From Promethearchaeum syntrophicum (GTDB taxonomy: Archaea > Asgardarchaeota > Lokiarchaeia > Sigyniarchaeales > Promethearchaeaceae): DNA of 32,000 bases. This document shows positions 7,813 to 32,000 of the stretch, piece by piece (within the stretch, counting starts at the first letter, position 1; every line of letters starts with the position of its first letter). The translations under genes were made by a program, and so were the position numbers. The notes beneath the pieces were generated by a model. The model saw only the letters and a program-made list of their open reading frames with translations. It had not been told where the DNA came from and did not search any database. Where the stretch lies: assembly GCF_008000775.2 (NCBI RefSeq), contig NZ_CP042905.2:570001-602000 (forward strand), read 5' to 3'.

Positions 7813-7975
7813 CCTTCTAGAAATAATTTTTGAATTGAGTTAATGTAATAAATTTTCTCTAGCATTTAAAGAAAACCTCTTAACCAACTTATTGTAAAAT
7901 TAAAAAAAATAATAAATATGTAGAAAAAAAATAAGTAAACCTTACAAATTGAAAGGAAGAAAAAAACTTTAGCCA

Positions 7976-7993
7976 GAAGACCTAGCGGTCTTC
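7976..7993 (-). repeat. Perfect 7-bp hairpin at the 3' (right) end of the IS
   Basis: GAAGACC (7976-7982) / GGTCTTC (7987-7993) with a 4-nt loop, 25 nt past the recombinase stop codon. On the - strand it is followed 9 nt later by a T7 run. It could be a terminator and/or a recombination-end structure. Confidence 0.5.
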
Positions 7994-8017
7994 CTTAGAG
8001 ATAAAGTTTCAATTTTT

Positions 8018-9577
8018 TTATTTTCGCGTAGATGTGTGCTTGTCTTGATATTTTGACTTCCGAATGAGCCGTTTAAAGCCATGCACAAGATGATACTTAC
8101 TCGTGCTATTCAGTAAATCGGAATTTGTCACCAAAAGCTTGGAGATGTTTCGTCTTAAAGCTCGGGTACGGTGACTTTCAAGAAGAGTCCCTTGATTTGT
8201 AAGATGCTTCTGGAGACGTGCTCGTTTCTTTTCCATAGTCTCATGATAGGGATCATACTGCCGAATTCCGGTCAACATTCCGAATACTATCCGACTATAC
8301 TTAAACGCAACCTTCATCATAGCTTTCTTGAAGGGAAGTTTACGGAGGAGCAGTTGTTTGTACGCATAAGCCCCAATATCTGTGTTACGATCCGGACGGC
8401 TCAAAATGATTGCAGCTGCTTGCGAGAGGGCAGAACGTAAATGTTTATTCGTGAAGCGGTTAACATGGCCCTTGGAGCGAAATGTCCCGCTTTGTTCCAC
8501 TGTAGGAACCACACCGCAGAATTTGCTGAATGCATCGGCGGTGCGGAAGCGAGAATAATTTCCTACCTCCGTGAGGATGGTGAGTACGGTCACCGCATTG
8601 AATCCAGGGATAAAACAGAGCTGTTCGTAGTGGGTACGAAGCGTGGGATGGTTCAACACATATGTTTCGGCTTCTTTCAATAAGATAGCTGCGGCTGCTT
8701 GGGATTCCAAGAGGCGTATGACTTCCACTTGCAAAAGAAAGCATTGAGGTTCCGTGAGTCGGACTTCAGCATGAGGAACTATCTCGGTTGCTTGTCGTTC
8801 TAACACTCTTCCCTGACCATTAGTTTTTAATTCTGCAAGGAATTCTTCGTAGACCTCCCCCAAAGGACGGGATTGGGCAATGTAACGATCCAAGAGTTGG
8901 AGACCCCACTCCGTGTTCAAGTTAAAACTGAATTTCTGATTAGCCAGATGGAGGTGTCGATGGATACGGTTTTTGCAGGTAGTAGTCTGGGTTCTTGTGC
9001 GATGATAGGACCGCATATAGTCCCTTACAGTAAAGAATTCGGGACTTCCCACATAACTTGGGCGTAAAATTCGCTCATAAAACGCTAAATTGGACAATGT
9101 CCGGGCATCAGCTCGATCACTTTTCGTTCCTAAATCTGCAATCCGATTGTGGACTAACAGGGGATTCATGGCAATGAGAAATTCCCTACGAGATGGAAAG
9201 CGTTGTTGAAGTGTTTGATATAAGGCCACGTGGTAAACGCCTGTGCACTCCATCAGAATGGTTGCTTTTGCTTGATAAGGACGCAGAAATCGACATAATT
9301 CTTCCACCCCTTGATGGTGGTTGCGGAAAGTATGTTCACGGATCACCAAGGTTTCTCCAGAAGGAAGGCGTCCGCTCATGCAGAGGGCAATCGAGTCTTT
9401 ATGCACATCCAATCCAATTCCAAAGGCGGTGACTTCTTTGAGGACTTTCACCACTTCCGGATTTCTTGGGGTACGTCGAATACGCTCGATCGAAGGTTTT
9501 TTTTGCTTTGCTGAAATCATTTTATTCACCGAATTCACTGTGATTGAATTCGCGTACATGGCAGGGTGTGTTCGCAT
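8018..9577 (-). CDS. IS110-family transposase/recombinase (DEDD RuvC-like N-domain plus Ser-containing Tnp C-domain)
   Basis: GIGLDVHKDSIAL (first Asp). ILMECTGVYH (Glu). GTKSDRADARTL (Asp pair). IPGFNAVTVLTILTEVGNYSRF...FCGVVPTVEQSGTFRSKGHVNRFTNKHLRSAL (HhH plus catalytic Ser motif). GGAGGT lies 8 nt upstream of the ATG at 9577. At 519 aa it is long for the family, with N- and basic C-terminal extensions. An alternative start exists at 9520. Confidence 0.92.
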   Translation of the reverse strand: MRTHPAMYANSITVNSVNKMISAKQKKPSIERIRRTPRNPEVVKVLKEVTAFGIGLDVHKDSIALCMSGRLPSGETLVIREHTFRNHHQGVEELCRFLRPYQAKATILMECTGVYHVALYQTLQQRFPSRREFLIAMNPLLVHNRIADLGTKSDRADARTLSNLAFYERILRPSYVGSPEFFTVRDYMRSYHRTRTQTTTCKNRIHRHLHLANQKFSFNLNTEWGLQLLDRYIAQSRPLGEVYEEFLAELKTNGQGRVLERQATEIVPHAEVRLTEPQCFLLQVEVIRLLESQAAAAILLKEAETYVLNHPTLRTHYEQLCFIPGFNAVTVLTILTEVGNYSRFRTADAFSKFCGVVPTVEQSGTFRSKGHVNRFTNKHLRSALSQAAAIILSRPDRNTDIGAYAYKQLLLRKLPFKKAMMKVAFKYSRIVFGMLTGIRQYDPYHETMEKKRARLQKHLTNQGTLLESHRTRALRRNISKLLVTNSDLLNSTSKYHLVHGFKRLIRKSKYQDKHTSTRK

Positions 9578-9585
9578 CCTGCCAT

Positions 9586-9940
9586 ACCTCCTTTTAGGTC
9601 TTTTCTTACCCTCAAGGACACGGTGTCATTTCCCCCCCTCTTAGTGATCGTCCGGCTGCGGTCTCGGTTCCTCCCGTGGGTGAAAAAACCCGAAGGATTG
9701 CATCAGCTGCACAGGGGATAGCCGAAATTTCGTGGCATGGGGTTCCCCCTTCGAACGAGCTGTTGCGGTGCTGAGTTCCCACCTGCTCGCCAAGAGGCAA
9801 ACATCCCAATATCTCTGAAAGATTGCTTGACCCTGAGAACCTCCTCCACCAATTTTCGATGAAAGGGTTCCCCACGCGCGGAATGACATACTTTTTTTCG
9901 ATGTGCCTGGTTCAAGACACATAAATTATTAATTGTTCTC
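9586..9940 (-). ncRNA. Candidate bridge RNA encoded in the IS110 left end (extent uncertain, may reach ~9985)
   Basis: ~355 nt directly 5' of the recombinase SD, about 50-55% GC, with no credible ORF (three overlapping - strand frames are open only because stops are rare). Helices found by eye are listed in + strand coordinates. Hairpin at 9901-9922. A three-tier stem spans 9700-9766: GCAACAGC/GCTGATGC encloses AGGGG/CCCCT, which encloses GCC/GGC, with internal loops of 8/5 nt and 9/3 nt. The position matches that of bridge RNAs in IS110-group elements. Confidence 0.45.
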
Positions 9941-10231
9941 CAATCACATTCGGGGGAGTTGGTGTTGATATGACTCCGTGATAATTATTTTGTCGACTTC
10001 CTTTATAAAAATTTGGAGAATGGCTTGTACCGTAAACTTCATGGCTGAAAGTATCTTATACCGTAAACTTGCAATCTCAATGGAGGCGAAGGGGGGTCTT
10101 TTGACAGAAAATATCCTAAAATTAACTAGAGAAAGAGTAAACGAATGTGATTGGAAGAGATCAGAATCATATCTCAAAGAAAAAGCATTGTAGAATGAAA
10201 GAAAAAAGAAAATAAAAAAATGTCACGAAAA

Positions 10232-11563
10232 TTATTTGGCTTCTAGAAATTCATCTGCCATTTTTTCCCCTTTTTCAATATCTACAAAATAGAGGATAAT
10301 TCCTCCAAGAATGAATAAGGATAAAACAGAAAGAATTCCATAACGTACATTTCCAGTTATATCAGATATATATGCCATAAGTGCTGGCCCTATAACTGCT
10401 GCAAATTTTCCAAGCATATTGAAAAAACCATAAAATTGTGCTGCCTTTGCTTTTGGAATTAGCCTTGAATATAAACTTCTACTTAATGCTTGTATCCCTC
10501 CTTGGAAACATCCTATAAGAAAAGCCAATGCATAAAAATGCCATTGTTGAGCCATAAATGCCCCTAATAGAGTTATACATCCATAAGCAATGATTGCAAC
10601 TAGAATTGCCTTTTTTACTCCAATTTTTTTAGCAAAAAGGTTATACAGTAAAGTTCCTGGGAAAGCGACAAATTGTACCATTAATAATGCAATTATTAAT
10701 GATTCTCCAGTAAAACCAAGTTCTGTACCGTAAGCAACAGCCATTCTGATTATAGTGTCCACTCCATCAATGTAAAACCAATAACCCAATAAAAATAGTC
10801 CAACATATTTTAAATGTTTAATATCACGGAATGTTTCTGCTAATTGTTGTAAACCTTCTTTAATTGCTTTCCTAAAAGTCATACCACTTTCAGTTTTAGA
10901 TTCTTTAACAAATAAAATAATCGGTATGGAGAAAACAGCCCACCAAATTGCTACACTAAGAAAAGATACTTTAATAGCCTGTGCCTCGTCAACAAATCCA
11001 AATGTTTCAGGCATTAAATACCATACAACATTTAACACAAACAACAATCCTCCTCCAATGTAACCTAAACTAAATCCTAAAGATGATACATAATCAATCT
11101 TCCTTTCAGAGGCCACTGAGGGTAAAAGTGAGTCATAAAATATGTTAGCTCCAGAAAATCCAATTGTTCCTAAGATATAAAGTGCAACTGCCCATTGCCA
11201 AAGACCAGCGGCAACAAAATTTAAACCCCCAGTTGTCAAAATACCTAATATTGCAAAAGTAAATAGAAATTTCTTCTTTCCAGACATTCTATCCGCGATC
11301 GCGCCAAGAAATGGTGCTAATATTGCCACAATAATAGATGCTATTGAGTTACTATAACCTAAAACAGTGATCGCATTTCCAGAAGCCCAATAACTTTCAA
11401 AAAATAATGGGAAAAAACCAGCCATGACTGTAGTTGCAAATGCAGAATTTGCCCAATCATAAAAAGACCATGATAAGATCGATTTTTTACTATCTATTGC
11501 TGATTGTAATTGTAAATTTTCTTCATTAGTTTTAACATCGTCTGATTCAATATGTTCACCCAT
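10232..11563 (-). CDS. MFS transporter, UMF1/Atg22-like family
   Basis: About 12 TM segments. The N-terminal SWSFYDWANSAFATTVMAGFFPLFF signature is typical of UMF1-type MFS proteins. Confidence 0.8.
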   Translation of the reverse strand: MGEHIESDDVKTNEENLQLQSAIDSKKSILSWSFYDWANSAFATTVMAGFFPLFFESYWASGNAITVLGYSNSIASIIVAILAPFLGAIADRMSGKKKFLFTFAILGILTTGGLNFVAAGLWQWAVALYILGTIGFSGANIFYDSLLPSVASERKIDYVSSLGFSLGYIGGGLLFVLNVVWYLMPETFGFVDEAQAIKVSFLSVAIWWAVFSIPIILFVKESKTESGMTFRKAIKEGLQQLAETFRDIKHLKYVGLFLLGYWFYIDGVDTIIRMAVAYGTELGFTGESLIIALLMVQFVAFPGTLLYNLFAKKIGVKKAILVAIIAYGCITLLGAFMAQQWHFYALAFLIGCFQGGIQALSRSLYSRLIPKAKAAQFYGFFNMLGKFAAVIGPALMAYISDITGNVRYGILSVLSLFILGGIILYFVDIEKGEKMADEFLEAK

Positions 11564-11635: not shown

Positions 11636-12178
11636 TTACAGAAATTCCTTGTCTATCTTAATTTTAATATTACTTTTCTTTTCAGTAGCCCCTTGCTTTT
11701 CTTTTCGCTTATCTTTCAAATAGGGAATTAATTTTTTGAGGCTGATACTAATTATAGCAATACTACCCGCTATGATTATTATCCAAATTGCATATGTAGG
11801 AGATACAAAATCTTTGAAAATTGTTTTCGTATAAGTGGTTCCTATATTATCTTTTCCAACTAGTGTTATATTCATTAATCCAAATGGATATTCTTCTGTT
11901 TTGAAACGAAATTCGAGTTCATTTCCAGATTCAAAGTCTTCTTGAGTTCCATTAAAAAAAAGTGTTAAATTTACAATATAATCTGGACCCGAACCCGTTA
12001 TCTTAAAATCCCCTTCAATTTTATCCCCATCAAGAGAAGTTGTTCCAACAATTTTTGAAACTCTTAGGAATAAAACTTCTTCATCTTGGCCGTTAGCATT
12101 CATAATAACTGAATTTAAAGAAAAAAGCAGAATAAAAGTGAAAATAATTAATGAATATTTATGTTTATTCGATTTCAT
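11636..12178 (-). CDS. Small surface protein: signal peptide, beta-rich ectodomain, C-terminal TM anchor (paralog 1)
   Basis: 180 aa with an N-terminal hydrophobic signal. Conserved QDEEVLFL, GDKIEG, GSGPD, NLTL.FNG and GLMNITL blocks are shared with 12306-12848. NxT sequons are conserved. TM segment plus a basic tail. Confidence 0.7.
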   Translation of the reverse strand: MKSNKHKYSLIIFTFILLFSLNSVIMNANGQDEEVLFLRVSKIVGTTSLDGDKIEGDFKITGSGPDYIVNLTLFFNGTQEDFESGNELEFRFKTEEYPFGLMNITLVGKDNIGTTYTKTIFKDFVSPTYAIWIIIIAGSIAIISISLKKLIPYLKDKRKEKQGATEKKSNIKIKIDKEFL

Positions 12179-12205
12179 TTCACTTAAAATTAATCATTGA
12201 AAAGC

Positions 12206-12236
12206 CAAAAACCTTTGGAAAAATTGATATCAAGCA
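12206..12236 (-). promoter_or_regulatory. Conserved 5' leader/operator block upstream of paralog 1
   Basis: The 21-nt block CAAAAACCTTTGGAAAAATTG is identical to 12874-12894, then (A/G)TA(T/A)CAAGCA follows. It contains the CCAAA-AACC-TTTGG inverted repeat and lies 28-58 nt upstream of the start codon. Confidence 0.4.
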
Positions 12237-12305
12237 TTTACTGAATGAAAATTCTTCAAACATTGTTCTTTGATAATTCTCTGATTAAGAAAGTATAAAT
12301 TATAT

Positions 12306-12848
12306 TTATTTACGAAATTTCTTATCTATAACAATTTTAATTTTGTTTTTCTTCTCAGCAAAGCTTTGCTTTTTATCTTTCATTTCTTTTCTATCAGAAA
12401 TTATTTTTAATATTACAATCGCACCAATAAAAGTAATTACACCCGATAAGATTACAATCCAACTTCCAACTTTTGGTGAAATAAATTCTTTGAAAATTGC
12501 TTTTTCATAAAATAATCCTTCACTATCTTCTCCTATCAGCGTAATATTCATTAAACCTAAAGAATAATTTTTTGTATAAAACTGAAATATGAGATGATTA
12601 TCAGATTCAAATGCAACTTTAACTCCGTTAAATAACAATGTTAAATTTAAAATAAAATCAGGACCAGAGCCGTTTATTGTAAAAATTCCCTCTATTTTAT
12701 CCCCAATTACCGCTCCGTCATCTCTCAGAATTTCTAAGAATAAGACTTCTTCATCTTGGGCATTAATGTTCAAAATTACTGAAATGAAAGAAATGAGAAG
12801 AATAAAAATGAACATAATTAGAGAATGTTTATGCTTTAAAGGTTTCAT
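12306..12848 (-). CDS. Small surface protein (paralog 2, tandem duplicate)
   Basis: Same length (180 aa) and architecture as 11636-12178. Roughly half of the positions are identical by eye. Confidence 0.7.
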   Translation of the reverse strand: MKPLKHKHSLIMFIFILLISFISVILNINAQDEEVLFLEILRDDGAVIGDKIEGIFTINGSGPDFILNLTLLFNGVKVAFESDNHLIFQFYTKNYSLGLMNITLIGEDSEGLFYEKAIFKEFISPKVGSWIVILSGVITFIGAIVILKIISDRKEMKDKKQSFAEKKNKIKIVIDKKFRK

Positions 12849-12873
12849 TTTGTTAAAAATATCATATTAAATT

Positions 12874-12904
12874 CAAAAACCTTTGGAAAAATTGGTAACA
12901 AGCA
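12874..12904 (-). promoter_or_regulatory. Conserved 5' leader/operator block upstream of paralog 2
   Basis: Second copy of the 21-nt identical block (see 12206-12236), at the same distance from its start codon. Confidence 0.4.
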
Positions 12905-13007
12905 ATATTAGAACGAAATTTCATCAATATCGTTCTCAAATACTTTTTTGGATGCTAAAAAACTGAAACATTTTAATGGTATTTTTGACAGATTAATATG
13001 ATCAAAA

Positions 13008-27198: not shown

Positions 27199-27230
27199 TT
27201 TTTTCTCATTTTGTTTTCCTTTTGGGCTGA

Positions 27231-27259
27231 TATGGCTTAGGCGGAAAATATATATAACC
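27231..27259 (+). repeat. Direct-repeat module copy 1 (BRE/TATA-like core), 3' side of the TPP-enzyme gene
   Basis: TATGGCTTAGGCGGAAAATATATATAACC. The first 14 nt are identical to 29236-29249, and about 25 of 29-30 positions match overall (one 1-nt indel). Both copies are followed by an A-run plus AATCAATA. Confidence 0.6.
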
Positions 27260-29015: not shown

Positions 29016-29235
29016 TTATTATCCCCTTGATCTTAAACAAATAATTCTTTTTTTTTTAATCAATAAAGTTGAACCTAAAAATAACGAGGTAGGGGGGAGT
29101 AAAAAGGCTTTGGTTTGTGGGGTTCTAAACTCTTAACGTTTAAGACTATCCTTTACTACCAAAATTGACTCTCCACTAATGTTTTAACATCTTCGAGATT
29201 GACCACTCCACTATTTGAATTGATTTATGAGCAGC

Positions 29236-29265
29236 TATGGCTTAGGCGGGAAAGTTGTATAAACC
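29236..29265 (+). repeat. Direct-repeat module copy 2, 5' side of the TPP-enzyme gene
   Basis: TATGGCTTAGGCGGGAAAGTTGTATAAACC. See copy 1 (27231-27259). Confidence 0.6.
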
Positions 29266-31539: not shown

Positions 31540-32000
31540 TTATTGTTTTGCCCCACATTTCTCGCAAAATCGCTGACCAGGATCCAACGGGTCTCCACAC
31601 TTATAACATTTTAAAGGACCAGCAGGATGACCACATTGTTCACAGAATTTTTGTCCTTCATCAAGCGGGTCTCCACAATTTTTGCAAAGATCTTCTGAAG
31701 CGGGTGTACCACATTTATCACAGAATTTCTCATCTTTATCAAGTGGATCTCCACATTTTTTGCATTTACCACCTTCACCAGTTGATTTGGGTACTGCTGG
31801 GGGGTGGGGATCCTTTCCACAATTAGAACATGCTTTGGCATCTAATTTTAATTGAGTGCCACAATGAGCGCAAGTCATAAAATCGCCTCCACCACCAGCA
31901 ACTGCCCCAGTTTTCATTCCTCCGCTCATAATATAAGCTGATGCTGCTCCTCCTGTAGATTTACCCAATTCCTTCGCTACATCCTTTTGGGTTTCCGCAG
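31540..32000 (-). CDS. Protein ending in four tandem zinc ribbons, 5'-truncated by the window edge
   Basis: The frame stays open upstream of the track's TTG (..AETQKDVAKELGKSTGG..) to the window end. The C-terminus has CAHCG...CSNCG followed by three repeats of CxxCGDPLDxxxxFCxxCG. Confidence 0.65.
   Translation of the reverse strand, partial: AETQKDVAKELGKSTGGAASAYIMSGGMKTGAVAGGGGDFMTCAHCGTQLKLDAKACSNCGKDPHPPAVPKSTGEGGKCKKCGDPLDKDEKFCDKCGTPASEDLCKNCGDPLDEGQKFCEQCGHPAGPLKCYKCGDPLDPGQRFCEKCGAKQ

What the first reader, a model, noticed from the sequence alone, without database searches (positions are those of the whole stretch)
9586..9990. Structured GC-rich non-coding left end of an IS110-type element: candidate bridge (guide) RNA
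Seen in sequence. The 350-400 nt immediately 5' of the recombinase ORF (- strand) have no plausible ORF. Frames are open in all three phases only because the region is 50-55% GC. The region is dense in helices (+ strand coordinates). One is the hairpin ATGTG-T-CTTG/AAC/CAGG-CACAT at 9901-9922. Another is a three-tier stem at 9700-9766: GCAACAGC/GCTGATGC (7 of 8 bp) encloses AGGGG/CCCCT, which encloses GCC/GGC. Its asymmetric internal loops are tcgttcga/gtgca and gaaccccat/tat. The 9-mer GGGTTCCCC occurs twice in the same orientation (9740-9748 and 9865-9873), and one copy lies inside an internal loop. Established knowledge: IS110-group elements carry a non-coding RNA in the left end whose two internal loops base-pair with target DNA and with the donor (RE-LE junction) to programme the DEDD/Ser recombinase. 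Inference: this region is such an RNA, here apparently in an archaeal host and longer than the ~180-nt E. coli IS621 example. I could not identify the guide segments by eye.
Basis: partly seen in the sequence, partly recalled or inferred. Interest (0 to 1): 0.8.

Follow-up and report, generated by a model that had tools for sequence, protein, structure and literature searches.

The report
Asgard archaeal IS110 bridge RNA gene
The GC-rich stretch upstream of this archaeal IS110 recombinase gene very probably encodes a large bridge (guide) RNA whose loops match the element's own ends and its insertion site; it is a new archaeal variant of a known RNA-guided recombination system.

Summary
The main inference holds; several details do not. 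The window matches Promethearchaeum syntrophicum MK-D1. It carries a 2,268-bp IS110-family element at window 7959-10226 (- strand), so the left end is about 700 nt long and does not stop at 9990.

In about 30 related Asgard elements the stretch 9980-9650 is a conserved, strand-specific structured RNA. Compensatory changes support helices P1-P5. A BRE/TATA-like motif lies at 10002-10017.

Three single-stranded segments follow IS621 bridge-RNA rules and differ from shuffled locus pairings:
- 9932-9923 resembles the left flank (left target guide).
- 9900-9890 is complementary to the right-end/flank junction (right target guide plus handshake).
- 9737-9727 is complementary to the flank/left-end junction (right donor guide plus handshake).

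The donor-guide prediction held in 4 of 4 testable held-out loci. The "three-tier stem" and the repeated 9-mer are not conserved.

Departures from IS621:
- The RNA is about 330 nt and the recombinase about 500 aa.
- The donor site is a three-way junction.
- No canonical left donor guide was found; that position pairs with a subterminal right-end site beside a conserved hairpin.
- The element has a 14-bp subterminal inverted repeat.

Transcription and activity remain untested.

The parts
7959..10226 (-). Whole IS110-family element, 2,268 bp. TTTTC is shared by both junctions, so each end is ambiguous by up to 5 nt.
   Evidence: Near-identical copies L011 and L012 diverge from the window outside these points. 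The left junction aligns in about 20 loci.
8018..9520 (-). Recombinase CDS, 500 aa from M20. An ORF of 519 aa is open from 9577.
   Evidence: Matches PF01548, PF02371 and NF033542. D57, E110, D154, D157 and S363 are conserved. The fold matches IS621 and ISCro4. M20 is nearly invariant, and a 500-aa version is in NCBI.
10208..10221 (.). Left arm of the subterminal inverted repeat (partner at 8012-8025).
   Evidence: 14 of 14 nt complementary. Conserved and co-varying in 19 loci: 242 against 170.2 +/- 7.3 for shuffled pairings, 0 of 2000 as high.
8012..8025 (.). Right arm of the subterminal inverted repeat. It overlaps the stop codon.
10222..10232 (-). Left junction, ATTTTC|GTGAC: left-target T-run with the core, then the right-donor (LE) terminus.
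10002..10017 (-). Putative archaeal promoter CCAAATTTTTATAAAG (BRE-like plus TATA-like). A conserved CCGACAAAAU box follows at 9996-9987. The predicted start is near 9980.
   Evidence: Motif and spacing are conserved across loci. The start site is inferred from usual archaeal TATA-to-start spacing (own knowledge) and was not measured.
9955..9977 (-). H0 hairpin, GGAGU...ACUCC.
   Evidence: A hairpin of differing sequence sits here in all 21 loci folded.
9886..9936 (-). Target-binding loop module. P1 (9936-9933 with 9889-9886) encloses the two guide strands and P2.
   Evidence: P1 shows compensatory changes in L018, L027 and L034 and in held-out L039/L040 and L044.
9923..9932 (-). Candidate left target guide, UUAAUAAUUU (same sense as the left flank AATAATTT).
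   Evidence: Own flank against shuffled flanks: 69 vs 48.2 +/- 5.3 (0 of 20000), and 122 vs 100.1 +/- 5.2 (0 of 5000). This is the noisiest of the guide signals.
9901..9922 (-).
9890..9900 (-). Candidate right target guide plus handshake, CGAAAAAAAGU. Complementary to the right-junction top strand TTTTTTTC (7966-7959).
   Evidence: 165 vs 135.6 +/- 4.75, 0 of 5000. Column pairs are 16-19 of 19 complementary. L016 differs from L003 at one RNA base and at the matching flank base.
9830..9877 (-). P3 hairpin.
   Evidence: 9 of 11 pairs have changes on both sides.
9703..9882 (-). Donor-binding three-way junction closed by the long-range helix P4 (9882-9878 with 9707-9703).
   Evidence: All 5 P4 pairs change on both sides. 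L023 has CAAA/UUUG.
9810..9816 (-). AGAGAUA, immediately 5' of P5 where a left donor guide would sit. Complementary to the right-end segment TATCTCT (8003-7997).
   Evidence: 124 vs 108.5 +/- 3.4, 0 of 5000. Columns are 19/19 and 18/19 complementary. Held-out L041 has a compensatory change, AGAAAUAAU with ATTATTTCT.
9738..9808 (-). P5 (9808-9805 with 9741-9738) closing a hairpin of variable length.
   Evidence: The innermost pair shows UA9, GC5, UG3, CG3, AU1.
9727..9737 (-). Right donor guide plus handshake, UGCCACGAAAU. Complementary to the left junction TTTCGTG (10230-10224).
   Evidence: 190 vs 150.7 +/- 4.6, 0 of 20000. Element-internal positions alone: 82 vs 49.4 +/- 4.2. Columns are 18-19 of 19 complementary. 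Correct in 4 of 4 testable held-out loci.
9671..9699 (-). Hairpin with a U-rich loop (U6 at 9689-9684). Its role is open: structural, an oligo-U termination site, or a T-run-matching donor guide.
   Evidence: A hairpin with differing stems is found in all loci. No informative covariation with the ends.
9650..9671 (-). Conserved 3' motif GGAACCGAGACCGCAGCCGGAC. It may pair with the 5' leader at 9953-9939.
   Evidence: Conservation. The pairing register is inconsistent between loci.
7964..8009 (-). Two-tier hairpin of the right-end tail: AAACUUUA, UCUCUAAG, [GAAGACC GCUA GGUCUUC], UGGC, UAAAGUUU. A T-run follows to the element end at 7959.
   Evidence: Conserved, with an inner stem whose sequence is entirely different between loci.

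Best explanation
Window 9980-9650 (- strand) is the gene for a bridge-type guide RNA of an Asgard-archaeal IS110-family insertion sequence spanning 7959-10226.

**Proposed mechanism**
1. The RNA is probably transcribed from an internal BRE/TATA promoter at 10002-10017, possibly as the leader of the recombinase mRNA.
2. It folds into a target-binding internal loop (P1/P2) and a donor-binding three-way junction (P4/P3/P5).
3. In the target loop, the 5' strand (9932-9923) has the sequence of the left flank, so it would pair with that flank's bottom strand.
4. [quoted passage not shown]
5. [quoted passage not shown]
6. Both 3' strands continue into complementarity with the sequence that becomes adjacent after insertion, as the IS621 handshake guides do.
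7. The 500-aa DEDD/Ser recombinase would use this RNA to insert the circularised element into T-rich sites. Here the site is AATAATTTTC^TTCC, 5 nt after the stop codon of an MFS/Atg22-like gene.

**Shown here:** conservation, structure, strand specificity, guide-to-DNA covariation and the recombinase fold.
**Inferred:** transcription, RNA ends, RNA-protein complex and recombination activity.
**Unresolved:** how the right-end (left-donor) side is recognised. The segment in the left-donor-guide position pairs with a subterminal right-end site instead.
For: - **Recombinase identity:** domains, catalytic residues and fold.
- **Element ends:** defined from independent copies.
- **Non-coding conservation:** the non-coding blocks keep 78-92% nucleotide identity where the proteins share only 56-58%.
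- **Strand-specific folding**.
- **Structure on 21 sequences:** 89.8% of cells paired vs 77.6% in shuffles. 22 pairs change on both sides vs 12.9. Covariation score 0.422 vs 0.195, with 0 of 500 shuffles as high. Slid controls give 37-52% paired. Many G-U pairs fit only this strand.
- **Guide-to-DNA covariation:**
- **Held-out loci:** the donor-guide prediction was correct in 4 of 4. The subterminal pairing held in 4 of 5, one with a compensatory change. The first right-flank base was correct in 4 of 6. P1 showed further compensatory changes.
- **Covariance model:** one hit per element, always on the recombinase strand, 62-108 bits for complete hits (including the intron-split L002). The window has a single hit at 9826-9946.
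- **Group II introns:** two independent introns lie inside the RNA gene in sense orientation. Their removal restores the family consensus.
- **Pairing rules** taken from PMC11208160 and PMC11208158.
Against: - No expression data were available. The start and end of the RNA are guesses.
- No segment identical to the right-end terminus (a left donor guide) was found.
- The left-target-guide match is noisy, 1-6 of 7 variable positions per locus.
- T-runs at both junctions make the core position ambiguous. They also make handshake pairing with cognate versus non-cognate DNA indistinguishable.
- Shuffling loci does not remove shared ancestry, so element-internal covariation could be partly phylogenetic. 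Maintained complementarity argues against that, and the flank-related tests are free of this problem.
- Two held-out loci (L040, L042) did not match at the first right-flank base.
- Rfam gives no hit. Whether it holds a bridge-RNA family was not established.
Confidence: 0.85

Rival explanations
1. The region is only a structured 5' leader of the recombinase mRNA that controls translation or stability. It has no guide function.
For: It lies directly upstream of the ORF on the same strand. Further hairpins continue to the start codon, for example 9585-9558. No terminator separating the RNA from the mRNA was shown.
Against: A leader has no reason to co-vary with flanking host DNA or with the element termini in the IS621 strand pattern. 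Being a leader and being a guide are also not exclusive.
Confidence: 0.06
2. The matches are DNA-level recombinase-binding repeats, that is, internal inverted copies of the ends. No RNA is involved.
For: The element does carry a 14-bp subterminal inverted repeat. The AGAGAUA/TATCTCT relation can equally be read as a second inverted repeat between the left and right ends.
Against: - The segments sit between helices that keep pairing through compensatory and G-U changes on one strand only.
- One segment follows the flank, which is not part of the element.
- The protein has the fold of RNA-guided bridge recombinases.
Confidence: 0.05
3. The region encodes a small protein, for example the 93-aa ORF at 9641-9922 on the - strand.
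For: ORFs of 70-93 aa are open here.
Against: Stop-free runs differ widely between homologs, with no shared frame. Hairpins of variable length cause indels that are not multiples of three, and substitutions preserve base pairs.
Confidence: 0.01

Closest known systems
IS621 / ISCro4 bridge RNA with bridge recombinase (IS110 group; Durrant 2024 PMC11208160; Hiraizumi 2024 PMC11208158)
   Same: - The RNA is encoded in a long left end upstream of a DEDD/Ser recombinase whose fold matches (Foldseek E about 3e-13, target-normalised TM 0.72-0.78).
- The target-binding internal loop has a 5' strand of left-flank sense and a 3' strand complementary to the core and right flank.
- The donor 3' strand is complementary to the core and left-end terminus.
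- Both 3' strands extend into handshake-like complementarity.
   Different: - The RNA is about 330 nt rather than 177, and the protein about 500 aa rather than 326.
- An internal archaeal-type BRE/TATA motif is present. In ISEc11 a bacterial promoter is formed when the ends are joined (PMC11187229); that the same holds for IS621 is my recollection and was not checked here.
- The donor site is a three-way junction.
- No left donor guide adjacent to the core was found.
- The subterminal inverted repeat is 14 bp rather than 2-3 bp.
- The right-end tail is 47 nt and carries a conserved hairpin.
- The core lies in a T-run rather than at CT.
IS1111-group elements and their seekRNA / bridge RNA (Siddiquee 2024 PMC11187229; Durrant 2024)
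   Same: Long subterminal inverted repeats (7-17 bp reported there; 10-17 bp here). Donor-binding nucleotides lie in a multi-loop rather than a simple internal loop.
   Different: The RNA lies upstream of the recombinase in the left end, not downstream in the right end. The extensions beyond the repeats are 5 nt and 47 nt, not 7 and 3 bp.
Archaeal box C/D sRNA with Nop5 (proposed relatives of IS110 recombinase; Vaysset 2024, 10.1101/2024.06.21.599552)
   Same: Guide sequences sit in internal loops. Nop5, Nop56/58 and Prp31 appear as weak structural matches to the recombinase model.
   Different: No C/D or K-turn motifs were examined. The protein keeps its catalytic DEDD/Ser residues, and the guides match DNA junctions of a mobile element.

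Membership tests
IS110-family bridge RNA (bRNA / seekRNA) | Encoded in the long non-coding end next to a DEDD + Ser (PF01548 + PF02371) recombinase | tested here: met
   The left end is about 700 nt.
IS110-family bridge RNA (bRNA / seekRNA) | Conserved secondary structure supported by covariation, on the recombinase strand | tested here: met
IS110-family bridge RNA (bRNA / seekRNA) | Target-binding loop: the 5' strand matches the left target (pairs with the bottom strand), and the 3' strand is complementary to the core and right target | tested here: met
   Permutation tests; column pairs. The 5'-strand signal is significant but noisy.
IS110-family bridge RNA (bRNA / seekRNA) | Right donor guide complementary to the top strand of the core and left-end terminus | tested here: met
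   Held-out loci 4 of 4.
IS110-family bridge RNA (bRNA / seekRNA) | Left donor guide with the sequence of the right-end terminus and core, on the 5' side of the donor loop | tested here: not met
   No identity diagonal was found. That position (9816-9810) is instead complementary to a right-end site 38-44 nt from the end. An invariant T-run match cannot be excluded.
IS110-family bridge RNA (bRNA / seekRNA) | Handshake guides pair with the non-cognate DNA only | tested here: inconclusive
   Both 3' strands are contiguously complementary to the post-insertion junctions. Target and donor both carry T-runs beside the core, so cognate and non-cognate pairing cannot be told apart.
IS110-family bridge RNA (bRNA / seekRNA) | Expressed as an RNA that binds the recombinase and is required for recombination | not testable with these tools
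   Only indirect support: the promoter motif and sense-oriented group II introns.
IS110 group (as opposed to IS1111) | Long left end, short right end, RNA in the left end | tested here: met
   The left end is about 700 nt. The right end is 59 nt after the stop codon.
IS110 group (as opposed to IS1111) | Subterminal inverted repeat absent or only 2-3 bp | tested here: not met
   A 14-bp perfect repeat, 10-17 bp across the family.
IS1111 group | Subterminal inverted repeats of 7-17 bp | tested here: met
IS1111 group | Long non-coding region and RNA downstream of the recombinase; terminal extensions of about 7 and 3 bp | tested here: not met
   The RNA is upstream. The extensions are 5 nt (left) and 47 nt (right).

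The most novel reading that the evidence does not exclude
This Asgard clade recognises its donor in a way not described for IS621. The canonical left donor guide is missing. The strand in its place (AGAGAUA, 9816-9810) pairs with the unpaired 5' arm of a conserved two-tier hairpin in the right-end tail (TATCTCT, 8003-7997).

Two readings remain open:
- The RNA reads a structured DNA donor.
- The RNA docks the 3' end of the recombinase transcript. That end necessarily has the sequence of the right-end terminus and could serve as a guide supplied in trans, giving a bipartite bridge RNA.

Together with the long subterminal inverted repeat and the left-end position of the RNA, this would make the clade an intermediate form between the IS110 and IS1111 designs.
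Probability: 0.3. Interest if true: 0.75.

Novelty: new variant of a known kind. Interest (0 to 1): 0.6.

Why it matters
- Bridge recombinases are being developed as programmable genome-rearrangement tools. So far they are characterised only from bacteria.
- This is an Asgard-archaeal clade with a larger protein and RNA, an apparent promoter of its own, and what looks like a different solution for reading the donor. Its anatomy is mapped well enough here to design experiments directly.
- It adds an archaeal data point to the proposed evolutionary link between IS110 recombinases and Nop5 with C/D guide RNAs.
- It shows these elements landing in T-rich sites just after genes in a close relative of eukaryotes.
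- No paper in the searchable library describes bridge RNAs of Asgard elements. Protein databases already label such proteins 'RNA-guided transposase'.

Tried and rejected
- **Rfam:** gathering and E-value modes gave no relevant hit.
- **Other MK-D1 copies:** exact-protein look-ups of the 500-aa form found nothing on record.
- **Empty site:** a look-up through the neighbouring MFS gene returned only a contig that breaks at the element boundary.
- **RNAalifold helix 157-160/388-391:** rejected. Three variant loci break it but keep the alternative P1 pairing.
rejected, because its strands pair elsewhere in the family.
- **Left donor guide:** k-mer histograms, column-pair identity/complementarity scans and inspection of the U-rich loop found only T-run identity.
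- **Closing helix** between the 5' leader and the 3' conserved motif: plausible in some loci (L028, L022, window) but the register is inconsistent.
- **All-against-all column scan** for further helices: only the known helices and isolated pairs.
- **G-U content of the right-end hairpin** as a DNA-versus-RNA discriminator: about 9% G-U, not decisive.
- **The 11-nt complement 8335-8345/10030-10040:** about as expected by chance in 2.3 kb (my estimate).
- **The left flank of L011:** not used as an independent site, because the contig looks chimeric.

Full report
**Context.** The ORF at 8018-9577 (- strand) matches DEDD_Tnp_IS110 and Transposase_20. It also matches NCBIfam NF033542, 'IS110 family RNA-guided transposase', at 175.6 bits against a cutoff of 140. 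An identical protein is recorded from Promethearchaeum syntrophicum under three accessions, and from a 2.6-kb contig in the assembly of its co-culture partner Halodesulfovibrio. Relatives down to about 35% identity come almost entirely from Promethearchaeota/Lokiarchaeia genomes and sediment metagenomes. D57, E110, D154, D157 and S363 are invariant or nearly so. S363 aligns with the catalytic serine of IS621. An AlphaFold model (pLDDT 83) has the IS621 and ISCro4 bridge recombinases as top structural matches, at E about 3e-13 and target-normalised TM 0.72-0.78. The likely start is M20 at window 9520, giving 500 aa.

**Element ends.** Near-identical copies L011 and L012 and about 20 more distant loci share sequence with the window up to ...ATTTTC|GTGACATTTTTTT on the left (G at window 10226). 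On the right they share ...GGCTAAAGTTTTTTTC|TTCC (C at window 7959) and diverge beyond. The element is therefore 2,268 bp. Its non-coding left end is about 700 nt, not about 400. It sits 5 nt after the stop codon of an MFS/Atg22-like gene. TTTTC occurs at both junctions, so the crossover lies somewhere in the T-run. L016 suggests a TT core. A 14-bp perfect subterminal inverted repeat links 10208-10221 with 8012-8025. It is conserved and co-varies across 19 loci: 242 against 170.2 +/- 7.3 for shuffled pairings, 0 of 2000 as high.

**The RNA.** The non-coding blocks at 9964-9802 and 9743-9650 and the right-end tail keep 78-92% nucleotide identity with elements whose proteins are only 56-58% identical. 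The - strand of 9578-9990 folds better than its shuffles (z = -2.5) and the + strand does not (z = -0.07). A motif of the form CCAAATTTTTATAAAG (BRE-like plus TATA-like) lies at 10017-10002, followed by a conserved CCGACAAAAU box. Both are aligned in nearly all loci. Usual archaeal spacing would put the start near 9980; this is inference.

Alignment of 21 elements and RNAalifold, corrected by hand, give the following layout:
- H0 hairpin, 9977-9955.
- P1, 9936-9933 with 9889-9886.
- P2, 9922-9901.
- P4, 9882-9878 with 9707-9703.
- P3, 9877-9830.
- A short invariant hairpin, 9822-9812.
- P5, 9808-9805 with 9741-9738, closing a variable hairpin.
- A hairpin with a U-rich loop, 9699-9671.
- A conserved 3' motif, 9671-9650.

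On this structure 89.8% of cells pair, against 77.6% in shuffles and 37-52% when partners are slid. 22 pairs change on both sides against 12.9 expected. The covariation score is 0.422 against 0.195, with 0 of 500 shuffles as high. Frequent G-U pairs fit only this strand. H0 and the U-loop hairpin recur with unrelated stem sequences.

A covariance model of the P1-P3 module finds exactly one copy per element, always on the recombinase strand. This includes seven loci fetched afterwards, six of them new elements (L043 repeats L023). Complete hits score 62-108 bits. The window has a single hit at 9826-9946.

**Guides.** The IS621 rules are these. [quoted passage not shown] Two further 3' bases, the handshake guides, pair with the other DNA after strand exchange (PMC11208160; PMC11208158).

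1. **Right donor guide.** The strand after P5, UGCCACGAAAU (9737-9727), is complementary to the left junction TTTCGTG(A)CA. It changes in step with that junction in every subgroup. Examples are TTTCATGA with CAUGAAA, TTTCGTTT with AAACGAAA, TTTTGTAT with AUACAAAA and TTTCACTA with UAGUGAAA. The own-locus score is 190 against 150.7 +/- 4.6 (0 of 20000). For element-internal positions alone it is 82 against 49.4 +/- 4.2. Column pairs are 18-19 of 19 complementary.
2. **Right target guide plus handshake.** The strand after P2, CGAAAAAAAGU (9900-9890), is complementary to the top strand across the right junction. Examples are L008 AAATTTTTTTAT (12/12), L024 AAACTTTTCTTA, L027 AAACTTTTTTCT and L029 ATTTTTATTT. 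The score is 165 against 135.6 +/- 4.75 (0 of 5000). The near-identical elements L003 and L016 differ at one RNA base (G or U) and at the matching first flank base (C or A).
3. **Left target guide.** The strand before P2, UUAAUAAUUU (9932-9923), resembles the left flank in the same sense. The window flank is AATAATTT; other loci show TCATTT, TACTTTT and TTCATTT. The score is 69 against 48.2 +/- 5.3 (0 of 20000) in fixed register, and 122 against 100.1 +/- 5.2 (0 of 5000) in free register. This signal is real but noisy.
4. **Left donor guide.** No RNA segment with the sequence of the right-end terminus was found. Instead AGAGAUA (9816-9810), exactly where a left donor guide would sit just 5' of P5, is complementary to TATCTCT (8003-7997) in the right-end tail and co-varies with it. 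Examples are AAAGACU with AGTCTTT, AGAGACA with TGTCTCT, AGAGAGC with GCTCTCT, and a 10/10 match in L021. The score is 124 against 108.5 +/- 3.4 (0 of 5000), with columns 19/19 and 18/19 complementary.

**Right-end tail.** The tail is a conserved two-tier hairpin: outer stem AAACUUUA/UAAAGUUU, internal loop UCUCUAAG/UGGC, and an inner stem whose sequence differs completely between loci. A T-run follows. It may act as a terminator, a donor determinant, or both.

**Held-out test.** Seven loci were fetched after the model was fixed; one of them, L043, repeats L023 and was set aside.
- The donor-guide rule located the left junction as a unique 7-8-nt match in all four loci whose left end was on the contig: L038, L039, L041 and L042.
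- The subterminal right-end pairing held in 4 of 5. L041 showed a compensatory change, AGAAAUAAU with ATTATTTCT.
- The first right-flank base was predicted in 4 of 6.
- P1 showed new compensatory pairs, CUAA/UUGG and ACGG/CCGU.

**Indirect support for transcription.** In Lokiarchaeum ossiferum (L002) a group II intron lies inside the RNA gene on the same strand. It carries an RT/maturase ORF and matches Rfam RF02012 and RF00029. It begins GUGCG directly after ...GUCAUUCUGCG and ends before CGUGGGGAAC. L030/L031 carry another intron between AUCUU and UCAGAGAGC. Removing either one restores the family consensus.

**Assessment.**
- The boundary at 9990, the three-tier stem and the repeated 9-mer are not supported.
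- The system mixes IS110-group traits (long left end holding the RNA) with IS1111-group traits (long subterminal repeats, multi-loop donor site). It adds an archaeal-type promoter motif, a larger RNA and protein, and an unexplained right-end pairing.
- Caveats: there are no expression or activity data. T-runs blur the core and the handshake logic. Locus shuffling does not correct for shared ancestry in the element-internal tests, though the flank-related tests and the held-out predictions do not suffer from this.

Noticed in passing
L002 347-2652 (Lokiarchaeum ossiferum CP104013.1); L030 127-1193 and L031: Group II introns are inserted in sense orientation inside the bridge-RNA genes of related elements, at two different positions. 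One carries an RVT_N/RVT_1/GIIM ORF. The ligated exons restore the family consensus.
   Followed up: yes
window 9939-9952 and 10142-10155: A 14-nt perfect inverted repeat. The upstream copy (UCCAAUCACAUUCG on the RNA strand) lies before the promoter. It could pair with the leader just 5' of P1 only in read-through transcripts from the upstream MFS gene, so it may act as an insulation device. It occurs only in the window/L011/L012 clade (11 of 13 nt in L012).
   Followed up: partly
window 10027-10058 (- strand): AAGTTTACGGTA occurs twice in the AT-rich left-end spacer. A TTTAYGGTWC motif preceded by a TATA-like GCTTTAAG is conserved about 45 nt upstream of the main TATA in many loci. It could be a second promoter or a protein-binding site.
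   Followed up: partly
window 9987-9996 (- strand): The box CCGACAAAAU between the TATA-like motif and the predicted start is nearly invariant across the family. This is unusual for that part of an archaeal promoter, and its role is unknown.
   Followed up: no
L011 1-78: The 2.6-kb contig from the Halodesulfovibrio MK-HDV assembly starts with window 10179-10102 joined directly to the left-end start. It is either a copy nested in another copy's left end at GGATATTTTC^TG or an assembly chimera. The contig is probably Promethearchaeum DNA in the partner's assembly.
   Followed up: partly
window 9558-9585 and about 9521-9557: A conserved, co-varying hairpin covers the annotated ATG at 9577, followed by a GAAUUCA...UGAAUUC hairpin before the likely true start at 9520. 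The leader therefore stays structured right up to the start codon.
   Followed up: partly
window 11636-12927: Two adjacent 180-aa ORFs and their downstream spacers form a tandem duplication, 71-78% identical, with a period of about 670 nt.
   Followed up: no
window 31553-31758: Three copies of a 50-nt unit at 78-nt spacing (CCACATT...GGGTCTCCACA), 70-72% identical. This is probably a repeat within a coding sequence at the window edge.
   Followed up: no
window 27220-27257 and 29225-29262: A 38-nt motif, TTTTGGGCTGATATGGCTTAGGCGGAAAATATATATAA, is repeated (79% identity) in two intergenic regions about 2 kb apart.
   Followed up: no
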